Made by a program: the position numbers and the translations under genes. Shown in pieces: positions 768 to 21,455 of a stretch of 32,000 nucleotides of DNA. The stretch is taken from contig NZ_CP006932.1 in the NCBI RefSeq assembly GCF_000582535.1, positions 480,001 through 512,000 on the forward strand. Reading direction: 5' to 3'. The notes under the pieces are model-generated. The model was not told the DNA's origin and did no database searches. It worked only from the letters and a program-made list of their open reading frames with translations. The stretch comes from Candidatus Saccharimonadota bacterium (GTDB lineage Bacteria; Bacillota_I; Bacilli_A; Mycoplasmatales; Hepatoplasmataceae). Numbering within the stretch: the stretch's first letter is position 1; each line of letters opens with the position of its first letter.

Positions 768-1262
768 TTAAACAAATTTTAATAATTTTGAATCATAAAA
801 AGATTTATTTATTAAAATTAAAAAGGCGTTGAAATTTCTAACTCTTGTTTTTAAAAGAGAATCTTTTAAATTAAGATAAAAATTTAATAATTTATATTCA
901 TTATCTATAGTAAATTGATTACTATTTTTATAATCAAAATACGCATCTAAAAAAATTTCAAATTCTTTTTTATAAGTAAAATTTTTATTATAAAAATTAA
1001 AGACATTAATAATAAAAAGAGCTTTATTATTAATGTCTAGATCTAAAATTTCTTTTGCAATTAGATCAGAAAAATTTTCTTTTATACTTATATTTTCTGA
1101 AATTTGATAAATATAATATTCAAAAAAATGATTATTAAATTTTTCCTTTTTGATTGTAAGATTTATTAATTTTGTAATAAAAGAAAATTTATAAAAATAA
1201 TCTTGCTTTTTTAATCATTTTTTAAAATTTTTATCTTTTTTATAATTACTTAAATTATTCAT
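768..1262 (-). CDS. Hypothetical protein, 164 aa, Asn/Lys/Phe-rich, no TM segment
   Basis: ATG 1260-1262, TAA 768-770, one in-frame TGA (KKWLKK). Absent from the track because TGA splits it. Starts 2 nt after the yneF stop and ends 15 nt before the parE start, so operon placement supports coding. No motif recognised. Confidence 0.55.
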
Positions 1263-1264
1263 AA

Positions 1265-1504
1265 TTATTTTCGTTTTTTATATGTTTGCTTATTTTTCCC
1301 TTTTAAAGCATTCATTGTATTACGAATTTGTGCTTCAGAGGGTTTTCTTCCCATTGATTGAAACATTGCTCGTATCTGTTGTTCTGATATTGGTGGATTT
1401 TTTTTAATTTGTCTTTCAATTAATTTTTTTGTAAAATAAAATGTAAAAAATATAGTAATTGGAAATAAACAAATAAAAACAATTGCAGTAATTTCTCAAG
1501 CCAT
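1265..1504 (-). CDS. yneF: UPF0154 / YneF-family small membrane protein (79 aa)
   Basis: MAWEITAIVFICLFPITIFFTFYFTKKLIERQIKKNPPISEQQIRAMFQSMGRKPSEAQIRNTMNALKGKNK. One N-terminal TM followed by the family-typical NPPI..E..R.M..QMGRKPS..Q core. Codon 3 is TGA=Trp. Not in the track. Confidence 0.8.
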
Positions 1505-17329: not shown

Positions 17330-17998
17330 TTAATATGAACTCTTGCCTTCTAATCCTTTTACAATATCAATTCCATTAGATGTTCCAAGTCTATCTGCTC
17401 CAGCTTTTATTAATTCTTCTGCTTGATTTAAAGTTCTGATTCCTCCTGAAGCTTTTATTTTTGCTCTTCCATCAATTATTTTTTTCATAAGTTTTACATC
17501 TTCCACTGTCGCTCCACTAGTATTAACAGCTGTTGATGTTTTAATAAAATTAAATCCAGCCTCTACTCCTAATTTTGTAGCTAATTCTTTTTCTTCTTTA
17601 TTTAAAAGTCCTGTTTCAATTATTAATTTAATTATTTTATTTTTTGTTATTTTTCTTAATAAAGCTAATTCTTTACGAAGATAATCTTGATCTTTTTCAT
17701 GTAGCTTACTTGCATTAATAATAAAATCTAGTTCATCCGCCCCATCTTTGATTGCTTGTTTTGCTTCAAATGCTTTTGTTCTTGCTGATTGTTGCCCATA
17801 AGGAAATCCAATTACAGTAACAACTAAAACATTATTTTTATGTAATTTTTCTTGGACATGAGAAACTCAAAAAGGAGCAATACATAAACCTTTAAATTTA
17901 TATTTTATTGCATCATTTATCGCTTGATCAATTTCTTTTGTTAATACATCTCTTTTTAGTAAAGTATGATCTATATATTCATTTATATTTTTTTCCAT
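17330..17998 (-). CDS. deoC: Deoxyribose-phosphate aldolase (222 aa)
   Basis: YIDHTLLK, VIGFPYG, DELDFIIN, Schiff-base Lys region FNFIKTSTAV, KASGGIRT. ATG 17996-17998, TAA 17330-17332, one TGA=Trp. Not in the track. Confidence 0.9.
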
Positions 17999-18031
17999 TT
18001 TAATACCTAACCTTTATAACTTTTAGTAAAA

Positions 18032-18055
18032 ATAATCTTATATTAATAAGATTAT
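18032..18055 (-). promoter_or_regulatory. Perfect 9-N6-9 palindrome (candidate operator) overlapping the deoC-proximal -10 box
   Basis: ATAATCTTA (18032-18040), TATTAA, TAAGATTAT (18047-18055): 9/9 complementary arms. The right arm overlaps 5 nt of the -10 hexamer at 18051-18056. Confidence 0.45.
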
Positions 18056-18058
18056 ACA
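18051..18058 (-). promoter_or_regulatory. Extended -10 promoter element TGTATAAT, deoC-proximal
   Basis: The minus strand reads TGTATAAT, about 55 nt upstream of the deoC ATG and downstream of the terminator. No good -35, but the TG extension compensates. Confidence 0.45.
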
Positions 18059-18085
18059 TAAATTAACAATCATTATAATTTTAAG

Positions 18086-18118
18086 AAAATAAAAAGCCAC
18101 AAACCGGAGTTTATGGCT
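18086..18118 (-). terminator. Rho-independent terminator (minus strand)
   Basis: Minus-strand RNA AGCCAUAAAC-UCCG-GUUUGUGGCU followed by UUUUUAUUUU. It is a 10-bp stem with one U.G wobble. On the plus strand the same position would be a C.A mismatch with no following U-run, so it is strand-specific. It is the only GC-containing hairpin of this quality I saw in the window. Confidence 0.75.
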
Positions 18119-18233
18119 ATTTCTAAATTTTTTAGTACTTATCTCTTTGATTGAGTCATCAATTCTTCATTCTAAAGTCTAATGTCTAAATTCTACTATC
18201 TTATGATTGTCTATTATTCTACTTCCCAATCAA
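18119..18233 (-). ncRNA. Candidate structured leader RNA or sRNA (unclassified): P1 stem enclosing UAG heptad repeats, ending in the terminator at 18086-18118
   Basis: Predicted start is about 7 nt downstream of the -10 box at 18239-18244. The 5' arm UUGAUUGGG (18233-18225) pairs with CUCAAUCAA (18155-18147): 9 bp including one G.U, enclosing 69 nt. No ORF longer than 12 codons on this strand. Confidence 0.35.
18161..18221 (-). repeat. Phased UAG/TAGA repeats (7-nt period)
   Basis: Minus strand: TAGAATAA TAGACAATCATAAGA TAG TAGAATT TAGACAT TAGACTT TAGAATG AAGAATT. Four consecutive in-phase heptamers occupy 18168-18195. There are seven UAG triplets in 54 nt. Confidence 0.7.
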
Positions 18234-18238
18234 ATATT

Positions 18239-18267
18239 ATTTTAGCATAAAATTTATAAAAAAACAA
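18239..18267 (-). promoter_or_regulatory. Sigma-70-type promoter: TTGTTT-N17-TAAAAT with TG extension
   Basis: The minus strand reads TTGTTT (18267-18262), a 17-nt spacer ending in TGC, then TAAAAT (18244-18239), giving TGCTAAAAT as an extended -10. It lies 16-44 nt downstream of the Zn-ribbon gene stop. Confidence 0.5.
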
Positions 18268-18282
18268 ATTTTATTTTAAAGT

Positions 18283-18564
18283 TTATTGTTGTGGTTCTGA
18301 AGCAGTTTCGCTTCATCTTTCAAGTTCTGGAAGTTTTTTATTATACATATTTATCATAAATTTTGGAAAATGTTTTTTCTTCATTTCTTCTGCATTTTTA
18401 TCTTGCATATCTTTTACAGTAAAATTTGGACTTGTAAATTCTCCATTTTTATAACAATATGAACAGTATTTTTCAGATGGTGATCCATCTTTTTCTTTTG
18501 CTGGACCGTTTTTATCCCTTTTCAAAGGCATTCCACATGATTGGCAAATTTTTTGATTACTCAT
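18283..18564 (-). CDS. Zinc-ribbon domain protein (93 aa)
   Basis: MSNQKICQSCGMPL...EKYCSYCYKNGEFT: CxxC-N21-CxxC, then a basic helical tail. It resembles the 'putative zinc ribbon domain' proteins of Firmicutes (ICQSCGMP...YC.YC...G.F). The TGA at 18313-18315 is read as Trp, giving 9 more residues before TAA 18283-18285. Confidence 0.7.
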
Positions 18565-21258: not shown

Positions 21259-21455
21259 TTCAATATAAATTTTCTCAATTCAAAAAATATCTTTAATTAT
21301 ATAATAATTAATTTAATAAACAAATTAAATAATTTAAATAATTTAACATTATAAATTTACTAGATTAAAAAAATTATTAATTTATTGGGGTAAGTCAGAA
21401 TTGATAATAAATATTTAGAAATTTTTATAATTAAAATTATTTCAAAAGATAAATA

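What the first reader, a model, noticed from the sequence alone, without database searches (positions are those of the whole stretch)
18086..18267. Orphan promoter - stem - phased UAG heptads - terminator unit upstream of deoC (candidate novel leader RNA or sRNA)
In a genome where most genes abut or overlap, the 282-nt gap between the Zn-ribbon gene and deoC carries a complete minus-strand mini transcription unit. It has a promoter, TTGTTT-N17-(TGC)TAAAAT, at 18239-18267. A 9-bp stem (18225-18233 with 18147-18155) begins at the predicted +1. Its 69-nt loop is dominated by UAG repeats, four of them in perfect 7-nt phase (UAGAAUU UAGACAU UAGACUU UAGAAUG, 18168-18195), plus a fifth degenerate unit and three more UAGs upstream. 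The unit ends in the only strong intrinsic terminator in the window (18086-18118). That terminator is functional only on the minus strand, where the imperfect position is a U.G wobble rather than a C.A mismatch. UAG-N4-UAG-N4-UAG is the spacing recognised by the Bacillus anti-terminator HutP, and (G/U)AG repeats with shorter spacers are bound by TRAP. So the layout suggests a protein-dependent attenuator controlling read-through into deoC, or a trans-acting sRNA or 3'-UTR element of the dnaB-dnaI-Zn-ribbon operon. I do not recognise any known riboswitch core here, and no HutP/TRAP homolog is in this window. Nucleoside-salvage genes are enriched nearby: three dNKs, deoC and a purine permease.
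Basis: partly seen in the sequence, partly recalled or inferred. Interest (0 to 1): 0.72.

Follow-up and report, generated by a model that had tools for sequence, protein, structure and literature searches.

The report
Conserved AGA-repeat small RNA in Hepatoplasma
The gap upstream of deoC in this isopod-gut Mollicute holds a real, undescribed ~146-nt small RNA gene whose conserved core is six AGA triplets spaced every 7 nt, probably a protein-binding platform and not a switch controlling deoC.

Summary
The window comes from Candidatus Hepatoplasma crinochetorum (22% GC, genetic code 4). Comparison of nine syntenic loci from at least six lineages shows a conserved minus-strand transcription unit. 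Its promoter is TTGnnn-N17-TGnTAAAAT. The RNA is about 146 nt (18231 to ~18086). Its terminator stem has diverged completely in sequence but stays paired, with six compensatory pairs. The constrained repeat is AGA, not UAG. Six AGA triplets at 7-nt period (18201-18160) are invariant at 18 of 18 positions, while the 4-nt spacers vary at 12 of 24. Four phased UAGs alone are within chance (97% of simulations); six phased AGAs are not (0 of 300). A 30-nt block before the terminator is also invariant. No Rfam family matches. The deoC-attenuator reading is not supported. No antiterminator exists. A separately conserved promoter-like block with a perfect palindrome lies between the terminator and deoC. 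More distant relatives have deoC without this RNA. The best reading is a free-standing small RNA, also the 3' end of the dnaB-dnaI-Zn-ribbon operon, that displays a single-stranded triplet array for an unknown oligomeric RNA-binding protein. No expression data or partner protein is available. It is a novel RNA family with a narrow distribution.

The parts
18262..18267 (-). -35-like hexamer (TTGTTT; TTGGAA or TTGGAT in relatives)
   Evidence: ATTTG is invariant and the 17-nt spacing to the -10 is kept in all nine loci.
18239..18247 (-). Extended -10 (TGC-TAAAAT), within the invariant block TTTTATGnTAAAATAA
   Evidence: Invariant except the n position in nine loci, while the sequence just upstream is 47-67% identical.
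18086..18231 (-). Predicted ~146-nt small RNA, from the G of GAUUGGG (7-8 nt after the -10) to the terminator U-tract
   Evidence: Covariance model R1 matches this span end to end in eight syntenic loci at 152-176 bits, one copy each. The transcript ends are inferred, not measured.
18225..18231 (-). P1 5' arm (GAUUGGG)
   Evidence: RNAalifold consensus. 100% of cells paired across 8 sequences; the only change is A-U to G.U.
18149..18155 (-). P1 3' arm (CUCAAUC)
   Evidence: This arm is invariant.
18204..18207 (-). P2 5' arm (AUCA; ACCA or GUCA in relatives)
   Evidence: U-A to C-G compensatory change plus A-U to G.U. Short (4 bp) and rests on few events.
18158..18161 (-). P2 3' arm (UGAU; UGGU in relatives)
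18160..18201 (-). Array of six AGA triplets at 7-nt period (AGAUAGU AGAAUUU AGACAUU AGACUUU AGAAUGA AGAAUUG)
   Evidence: AGA positions invariant at 18 of 18, spacers at 12 of 24 (Fisher p = 2.4e-4). A run of 6 occurred in 0 of 300 simulations. Offsets are identical in 7 of 9 sequences, with one 10-nt or one 6-nt slip in the others. Predicted mostly unpaired, P(paired) 0.27-0.38.
18210..18220 (-). Two further conserved AGA motifs (three in the other clade) in the 17-nt internal loop between P1 and P2
18117..18146 (-). Invariant 30-nt block AGAGAUAAGUACUAAAAAAUUUAGAAAUAG
   Evidence: 97-100% identity, against 66-74% at third codon positions of the flanking genes. Predicted largely unpaired.
18095..18118 (-). 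Intrinsic terminator hairpin (AGCCAUAAAC-UCCG-GUUUGUGGCU)
   Evidence: Sequence identity is only 36-44% between clades, yet it is always a hairpin of -12.8 to -16.9 kcal/mol. Six pairs have changes on both sides.
18085..18094 (-). Terminator U-tract (UUUUUAUUUU)
18030..18065 (-). Separately conserved promoter-like block for deoC (TTTATG-TATAAT), overlapping a perfect 10-4-10 palindrome ATAATCTTAT-TAAT-ATAAGATTAT (18055-18032). Adjacent to the RNA, not part of it.
   Evidence: 92-94% identity, against 26-47% for the spacer before it. The only variation in nine loci is in the central 4-nt spacer.

Best explanation
The gap holds a free-standing small-RNA gene of about 146 nt on the minus strand.

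Transcription (inferred): it starts from its own extended -10 promoter at about 18231 and stops at the strong intrinsic terminator at 18095-18118. That terminator also ends the upstream dnaB-dnaI-Zn-ribbon operon, so the same RNA could also arise as that operon's 3' end.

Fold (from comparative analysis): a 7-bp stem P1 and a short inner stem P2 close a large loop. The loop displays six AGA triplets at a 7-nt period, with two to four more nearby, in single-stranded form. A 30-nt invariant, unstructured block follows, and then the terminator.

Mechanism (inferred): only the AGA triplets are constrained, the spacers drift freely and the period is kept. The array is therefore most likely a multivalent binding platform for an oligomeric RNA-binding protein that reads one triplet per subunit. 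HutP (XAG, 7-nt period) and TRAP use this logic on their leader RNAs. Here the array sits in a stand-alone RNA, so it would act in trans as a sponge or scaffold, and would not switch the adjacent terminator.

Shown: the conservation pattern, the covariation, the absence of an antiterminator and the independence from deoC. Inferred: transcription, the protein partner and the trans action.
For: - Source and synteny: the window is Ca. Hepatoplasma crinochetorum. Nine syntenic loci from at least six lineages were recovered.
- Uneven conservation against a neutral yardstick of 66-74% third-codon identity. The promoter -10, the 5' end and the 30-nt block are 93-100% identical. The terminator stem is 36-44% identical but always a hairpin. 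The spacer after the terminator is 26-47% identical.
- Structure: 98% of cells paired, against 37-50% for slid controls. Seven pairs carry compensatory changes, six of them in the terminator.
- Closest strain: of its three differences, two are pair-preserving changes in the terminator stem.
- AGA array: 18 of 18 invariant positions against 12 of 24 for the spacers. A six-fold phased run occurred in 0 of 300 simulations and nowhere else in 442 kb of held DNA.
- The array is predicted to be mostly unpaired.
- Indels of 1-2 nt in CAAUCA(A)(A)GAG exclude a conserved small ORF.
- One copy per locus and no paralogue.
- The HutP grammar (XAG read at 7-nt period, spacers sequence-independent) is documented in PMC2425495.
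Against: - No expression data: the transcript ends are inferred from the promoter and terminator only.
- No candidate partner was identified. No HutP- or TRAP-like ORF was seen among the window ORFs scanned. The adjacent Zn-ribbon protein has no informative structural neighbour. The full genome could not be searched.
- P1 is supported only by A-U to G.U changes. An alternative local pairing of the 5' end is the MFE choice in 3 of 8 lineages.
- Two lineages carry a slip in the period (10 nt, 6 nt), which a rigid ring protein might not tolerate.
- The array model does not explain the invariant 30-nt block, which looks more like a base-pairing seed or a second binding site.
- The lineages are few and related, so the Fisher and shuffle statistics overstate independence.
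Confidence: 0.45

Rival explanations
1. A base-pairing trans-acting small RNA. The invariant 30-nt single-stranded block (18146-18117), and possibly the 5' GGGAAGUAGA, act as a seed that pairs with one or more mRNAs or a stable RNA elsewhere in the genome. The AGA array would then be an accessory feature, for example a stability or RNase-recognition element.
For: A contiguous 30-nt block with no substitution across clades that differ by about 30% at silent sites is typical of a seed paired to a conserved target. The block is predicted largely unpaired. The layout, with its own promoter and a Rho-independent terminator, is that of a classical sRNA.
Against: No start region among the 32 genes in the window shows complementarity above shuffled controls, although that is only about 5% of the genome. 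This reading does not explain why AGA triplets alone are invariant at a fixed period while the spacers drift. Mollicutes are not known, to my knowledge, to have Hfq- or ProQ-type matchmakers.
Confidence: 0.22
2. A cis-acting leader or attenuator of deoC. Transcription from the 18239-18267 promoter reads into deoC only when a protein bound to the triplet array suppresses the terminator.
For: The unit lies directly upstream of deoC on the same strand in all nine loci. The XAG triplets at 7-nt period match the HutP recognition grammar. Nucleoside-salvage genes lie nearby.
Against: - No antiterminator: the upstream 30 nt are invariant although the terminator arms changed completely, and the best competing duplexes are weak and inconsistently placed.
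- The array is about 45 nt upstream of the hairpin and does not flank it, unlike HutP sites I and II.
- A conserved TG-TATAAT block with an operator-like palindrome sits between the terminator and deoC.
- deoC in H. vulgare, L067, L062 and L063 has short upstream gaps with a plain promoter and no such RNA.
Confidence: 0.12
3. It is only the structured 3' UTR and terminator of the dnaB-dnaI-Zn-ribbon operon, for example an mRNA-stability or processing element, with no independent transcription. The promoter-like sequence would be conserved for another reason.
For: No terminator lies between the Zn-ribbon stop codon (18283) and 18118, so operon transcripts must run through the element. The RNA and the Zn-ribbon gene share the same narrow distribution.
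Against: TTG-N17-TGnTAAAAT is conserved in sequence and spacing, while the 15 nt between it and the stop codon are only 47-67% identical. The motif TTTTATG is shared with the deoC promoter-like block. This reading differs from the best explanation only in how the RNA is made, not in what the array does.
Confidence: 0.1
4. A DNA-level element (protein-binding iterons, TCT at 7-bp period) or chance AT-rich repetition.
For: The genome is 22% GC and full of weak tandem repeats. Four phased triplets are common by chance.
Against: Six phased AGAs occurred in 0 of 300 simulations and are unique in 442 kb of real DNA. They are conserved across lineages while the spacers change. The flanking terminator has strand-specific G.U pairs and compensatory changes that only make sense as minus-strand RNA. 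A 7-bp period does not place sites on one face of duplex DNA (inference from B-DNA geometry).
Confidence: 0.04

Closest known systems
HutP-binding hut leader/terminator RNA of Bacillus subtilis
   Same: A short purine triplet with an AG core (XAG) is repeated at exactly a 7-nt period. The spacers are sequence-independent and the sites are single-stranded and accessible (PMC2425495).
   Different: [quoted passage not shown] Here six triplets are contiguous, closed off by P1 and P2, and about 45 nt upstream of the terminator. A third invariant base (AGA) is present. No hutP or hut genes are seen. The downstream gene has its own promoter-like block.
TRAP-binding trp leader and trpG/trpP sites (Bacillus)
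   Same: A ring protein reads one NAG triplet per subunit along a single-stranded array, and only the triplets are conserved (from my own knowledge and the discussion in PMC2425495).
   Different: TRAP sites have 9-11 (G/U)AG repeats with 2-3-nt spacers (a period of about 5 nt) and overlap an antiterminator. Here the spacers are 4 nt, there are six core repeats, X is U, A or C, and there is no antiterminator.
Protein-sponge small RNAs (CsrB/RsmZ for CsrA; CrcZ for Hfq/Crc)
   Same: A stand-alone RNA with its own promoter and terminator carries many copies of a short motif displayed unpaired, so that it can titrate a protein (architecture inferred here; the families are cited from my own knowledge).
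   Different: Those motifs are GGA in hairpin loops or A-rich CA motifs, without a strict linear period. Their cognate proteins are known, and none is known in Mollicutes. No sequence or Rfam similarity was found.
3'-UTR-derived small RNAs with an internal promoter (DapZ/MicL type)
   Same: It lies at the 3' end of an operon, shares the operon's terminator and has its own promoter just downstream of the last stop codon.
   Different: Those RNAs act through Hfq-dependent base-pairing seeds. No target or chaperone was identified here.

Membership tests
HutP-responsive hut antiterminator RNA | XAG triplets at 7-nt period with sequence-independent spacers | tested here: met
   Six AGA triplets (preceded by U, A or C) at 7-nt period. 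The triplets are invariant and the spacers variable. Grammar taken from PMC2425495.
HutP-responsive hut antiterminator RNA | [quoted passage not shown] | tested here: not met
   The six triplets are contiguous and lie 18160-18201. The terminator is at 18095-18118, separated from them by P1 and a 30-nt block. There are no XAG clusters 3' of the stem.
HutP-responsive hut antiterminator RNA | A HutP protein encoded in the genome (upstream in the same operon in Bacillus), with hut genes downstream | tested here: inconclusive
   The upstream genes are dnaB, dnaI and a PF12674 Zn-ribbon gene, and the downstream gene is deoC. No HutP was seen among the window ORFs scanned. The whole genome could not be searched with these tools.
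TRAP-regulated leader | 9-11 (G/U)AG repeats with 2-3-nt spacers overlapping an antiterminator | tested here: not met
   The spacers are 4 nt, there are six core repeats, and no antiterminator exists.
Any Rfam 15 family | Score at or above the family's gathering threshold | tested here: not met
   No hits at gathering threshold in the 32-kb window. Only chance-level hits at E up to 10 in the gap. Sub-threshold STnc40 hits (21-24 bits against a threshold of 45) fall on the terminator portion in L002 and L057.
Rho-independent (intrinsic) terminator | G+C-containing hairpin followed directly by a U-tract, maintained by compensatory change | tested here: met
   Six covarying pairs; -12.8 to -16.9 kcal/mol in all lineages.
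Stand-alone bacterial sRNA gene | Own promoter, discrete transcript and own terminator | tested here: inconclusive
   The promoter and terminator are conserved in sequence, spacing and structure. The transcript itself is not testable with these tools, as no expression data are available.
Protein-sponge sRNA (CsrB/CrcZ class) | Multiple unpaired copies of a motif bound by a cognate protein | not testable with these tools
   Motif multiplicity and accessibility are met. The cognate protein is unknown.
Transcription attenuator (terminator/antiterminator switch) | A mutually exclusive alternative pairing that involves a terminator arm | tested here: not met
   The best upstream duplex with either arm is -3 to -7.5 kcal/mol and falls at different positions in different lineages. 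The terminator has P(paired) of 1.00.

The most novel reading that the evidence does not exclude
A stand-alone small RNA that uses the triplet-per-subunit grammar of HutP and TRAP (AGA every 7 nt, six to ten copies) to titrate or scaffold a still-unidentified oligomeric RNA-binding protein in a ~0.65-Mb Mollicute genome. This would be the first sponge-type RNA built on a phased triplet array, and it would reveal a new RNA-binding regulator in minimal bacteria. The co-distributed PF12674 Zn-ribbon protein encoded immediately upstream is one testable candidate partner.
Probability: 0.25. Interest if true: 0.7.

Novelty: new variant of a known kind. Interest (0 to 1): 0.45.

Why it matters
Mollicutes have very few known regulators and almost no characterised small RNAs. 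A promoter-to-terminator RNA gene kept intact in a ~0.65-Mb genome is therefore likely to do something the cell needs.

Its conservation pattern is unusually legible: the triplets are frozen, the spacers are free and the period is fixed. That pattern predicts a specific kind of partner, an oligomer that reads one AGA per subunit, and it gives a clean mutational test (AGA to ACA, or a change of period).

If confirmed, it would extend the HutP/TRAP recognition logic from cis leaders to a trans-acting RNA, and it would point to an unrecognised RNA-binding protein family.

The limits are these. It is known so far only from the crinochetorum/scabrum clade of an uncultured isopod symbiont. There are no expression data. 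The function is inferred.

Tried and rejected
- Rfam at gathering and permissive thresholds on the window and two orthologues gave nothing meaningful.
- Two metagenome scans, one with the invariant 27-mer and one with a degenerate composite pattern, gave 0 hits.
- Model R1 found no second copy in the window and no copy in the deoC loci of other Mollicutes or Firmicutes.
- The DnaI search, meant to reach the dnaB-dnaI locus of H. vulgare, returned only the same clade plus relatives at 39% identity or less. L068 was uninformative.
- The small-ORF reading was rejected because of 1-2-nt indels within the only conserved frame.
- The alternative 5' hairpin (UGRUUG with YAAYCA) is supported by an A-U to G-C change but has an A.C mismatch in three sequences, L001, L057 and L065. 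It is kept only as a possible competing fold.
- The invariant block showed no complementarity above shuffles to the 32 start regions in the window.
- For the Zn-ribbon protein, Pfam gave PF12674 only and NCBIfam and PDB sequence searches were uninformative. The AlphaFold model was good (pLDDT 83), but Foldseek found no neighbour (best E about 5).
- Phage and plasmid searches gave only 33-nt chance matches inside phage nrdE.
- The Hepatoplasma genome papers and one supplement do not mention an ncRNA, HutP or TRAP.
- Literature searches for AGA-repeat RNAs or Mollicute sRNA families found nothing relevant.

Full report
**Source and gene map.** The window is 22% GC, and its reading frames are only intact under genetic code 4 (TGA = Trp). 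All genes lie on the minus strand. Its deoC product is 100% identical to a protein on a 657,101-bp record named Candidatus Hepatoplasma crinochetorum. The finding lies in a 284-nt gap (17999-18282) between a 93-aa Zn-ribbon ORF (18283-18564, PF12674) and deoC (17330-17998). This is the largest non-coding gap in the window. The apparent 245-nt gap at 1263-1507 holds a 79-aa ORF.

**Checking the observation.**
- Promoter: TTGTTT-N17-TGC-TAAAAT at 18267-18239.
- Stem: 9 bp, 18233-18225 with 18155-18147.
- Repeats: four UAG heptads at 18195-18168, plus more UAGs upstream.
- Terminator: hairpin 18118-18095 followed by a U-tract.

The terminator was found by the consensus scan. It is the strongest terminator-like hairpin in the 32 kb at -15.5 kcal/mol.

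Taken alone, the window does not make the case:
- Promoter-like matches are as frequent as in shuffles (117 found, 106 expected).
- The period-7 array scores only 36 in TRF.
- A run of four phased triplets arises in 97% of composition-matched simulations.

**Comparative evidence.** A deoC-based scan of species-representative genomes returned two congeners, L001 (H. crinochetorum Ps) and L002 (H. scabrum). Homologues of the Zn-ribbon protein and of deoC led to seven more syntenic loci in Logan assemblies: L055, L056, L057, L058, L065, L066 and L069. All keep the order dnaB, dnaI, Zn-ribbon, gap, deoC, yebC.

Third-codon identity between the window and the other clade is 66-74%. Against that yardstick the gap is a mosaic:

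| Segment | Identity to the window |
|---|---|
| Stop codon to -35 | 47-67% |
| ATTTG-N17-TTTTATGnTAAAATAA (promoter) | nearly invariant, with fixed spacing |
| 5' GAUUGGGAAGUAGA | 93-100% |
| 30-nt block AGAGAUAAGUACUAAAAAAUUUAGAAAUAG | 97-100% |
| Terminator stem-loop | 36-44%, yet always a hairpin |
| Spacer after the U-tract | 26-47% |
| Block over the deoC -10 | 92-94% |

**Structure.**
- The RNAalifold consensus has three parts: P1 (7 bp, 18231-18225 with 18155-18149), P2 (4 bp, 18207-18204 with 18161-18158) and the terminator.
- On eight sequences, 98% of cells are paired, against 37-50% when partners are slid by 1-3 columns. Seven pairs carry compensatory changes, six of them in the terminator.
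- The window's U.G is C-G in L055, L066 and L069. Other lineages carry U.G and G.U pairs that would be mismatches on the plus strand. The hairpin is therefore selected as minus-strand RNA.
- The closest strain, L069, differs from the window at three positions in 290 nt. Two are pair-preserving changes in this stem.
- P1 is supported only by an A-U to G.U change. P2 is supported by one U-A to C-G event and one A-U to G.U event.
- A competing local hairpin of the 5' end is the MFE choice in three of eight lineages. The fold of the body is therefore plausible but not proven.

**The repeat.**
- The constrained unit is AGA, not UAG. Counted from the 5' G, AGA starts at offsets 30, 37, 44, 51, 58 and 65 in the window, L055, L056, L066, L069, L057 and L058.
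- H. scabrum has one 6-nt step. L001 and L065 have one 10-nt step.
- The base before AGA is U, A or C. L066 turns one UAG into CAG while keeping the AGA.
- All 18 AGA positions are invariant, against 12 of 24 spacer positions (Fisher p = 2.4e-4). The lineages are related, so this overstates independence.
- Six phased copies of a non-homopolymer triplet occurred in 0 of 300 simulations. They occur nowhere else in 442 kb of held DNA, of which 159 kb is below 30% GC.
- Two to four further AGAs lie in the P1-P2 internal loop and just 3' of the array.
- The array is predicted mostly unpaired, with P(paired) 0.27-0.38.
- Indels of 1-2 nt in CAAUCA(A)(A)GAG rule out a conserved small ORF.

**What it is not.**
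- It is not a known RNA family. Rfam gave no hit at gathering threshold. Only chance-level or sub-threshold hits appeared, such as STnc40 at 21-24 bits against a threshold of 45, on the terminator portion.
- It is not mobile or phage-derived.
- It is not repeated in the sequence held.
- It does not behave as a deoC attenuator, for four reasons:
  1. No segment can compete with the terminator. The best duplexes are -3 to -7.5 kcal/mol, against -13 to -17 for the hairpin, and fall at inconsistent positions. The 30 nt preceding the terminator stayed invariant while the stem sequence was replaced, which excludes a co-evolving antiterminator.
  2. The array is about 45 nt from the hairpin and does not flank it. 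HutP works by binding two XAG sites on either side of the G-C-rich stem (PMC2425495).
  3. Between the terminator and deoC lies a separately conserved TTTATG-TATAAT block. It shares the TTTTATG motif of the RNA's own promoter and overlaps a perfect 10-4-10 palindrome (18055-18032). The palindrome's only variation in nine loci is in the central spacer, so it looks like a promoter with an operator.
  4. In H. vulgare (L060), L067, L062 and L063, deoC follows obg or rpsD with only 65-105 nt upstream. Those gaps hold a plain promoter or an ordinary terminator and no such RNA.

**Most likely mechanism.** I read the element as a stand-alone small RNA of about 146 nt. It is transcribed from its own promoter and ended by the terminator that also closes the dnaB-dnaI-Zn-ribbon operon. 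That operon has no terminator of its own.

Frozen triplets, free spacers and a fixed period are the signature of a protein that reads one triplet per subunit. HutP reads XAG at a 7-nt period with sequence-independent spacers, and TRAP works similarly. The array here sits in a free-standing RNA that cannot remodel its terminator. The simplest function is therefore trans-acting sequestration or scaffolding of an oligomeric RNA-binding protein.

This step is inference. No partner was found:
- None of the ten window ORFs scanned resembles a known RNA-binding regulator.
- The adjacent, co-distributed Zn-ribbon protein gave a confident model (pLDDT 83) but no structural neighbour.

The invariant 30-nt block is not explained by the array model and keeps a base-pairing role open. 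It showed no complementarity above shuffles to the 32 start regions in the window, which is a weak test.

**Novelty and score.** The Hepatoplasma genome papers do not mention this RNA. Literature searches found nothing similar. It is a new RNA family with a new arrangement of a known recognition logic.

So far it is found only in the crinochetorum/scabrum clade of an uncultured symbiont. Two metagenome scans found nothing further. The conservation evidence that it is real is strong. The evidence for its function is indirect. I score interest at 0.45.

Noticed in passing
window 18030-18065 (palindrome 18032-18055), minus strand: A perfect 10-4-10 palindrome, ATAATCTTAT-TAAT-ATAAGATTAT, overlaps the TATAAT just upstream of deoC. 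It is 92-94% conserved in nine loci, and the only variation is in the central spacer (T/C). It looks like a repressor operator on the deoC promoter. It is absent upstream of deoC in H. vulgare and the rpsD-deoC lineages.
   Followed up: partly
window ~1002-1037, minus strand: A perfect 16-bp hairpin made almost entirely of A-U pairs (GACAUUAAUAAUAAAG-CUCU-UUUUAUUAUUAAUGUC, -13.6 kcal/mol), followed by UUUAAUUU. It lies inside the 164-aa ORF 768-1262, which has no Pfam match. It is the only other terminator-like hairpin of comparable strength in the window.
   Followed up: no
window 1265-1504, minus strand: The apparent 245-nt gap between ORFs 768-1262 and 1508-1990 holds a 79-aa ORF (MAWEITAIVFICLFP...) with a hydrophobic N-terminus. 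From memory it resembles the YneF/UPF0154 family, but I did not test this.
   Followed up: no
window 18283-18564 (Zn-ribbon ORF) and proteins P0001-P0019: This PF12674 Zn-ribbon protein is found in the same Hepatoplasma clade as the RNA, and no H. vulgare homologue was returned. Its next relatives, at about 50% identity, come from other phyla; the only one carrying an organism name is a Phocaeicola MAG. That may indicate horizontal acquisition. Invariant residues are CQSCGM...C..C...G.F...L.RW. The AlphaFold model is confident, but no PDB neighbour was found.
   Followed up: partly
L060, L067 (obg-deoC); L062, L063/L064 (rpsD-deoC): The genomic context of deoC differs among Hepatoplasmataceae. 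In L063/L064 an ordinary terminator, AAAAUGAUUCUAGUAUACUAGAAUCAUUUUUU, follows rpsD, and a TG-TATAAT promoter precedes deoC.
   Followed up: partly
window 21259-21455, minus strand: This is the second-largest non-coding gap (197 nt), between the purine/xanthine permease and coaE. It is extremely AT-rich. Model R1 found no copy there and Rfam found nothing. I did not examine it comparatively.
   Followed up: no
whole window: The tools translate with table 11, but this genome uses code 4.
   Followed up: yes
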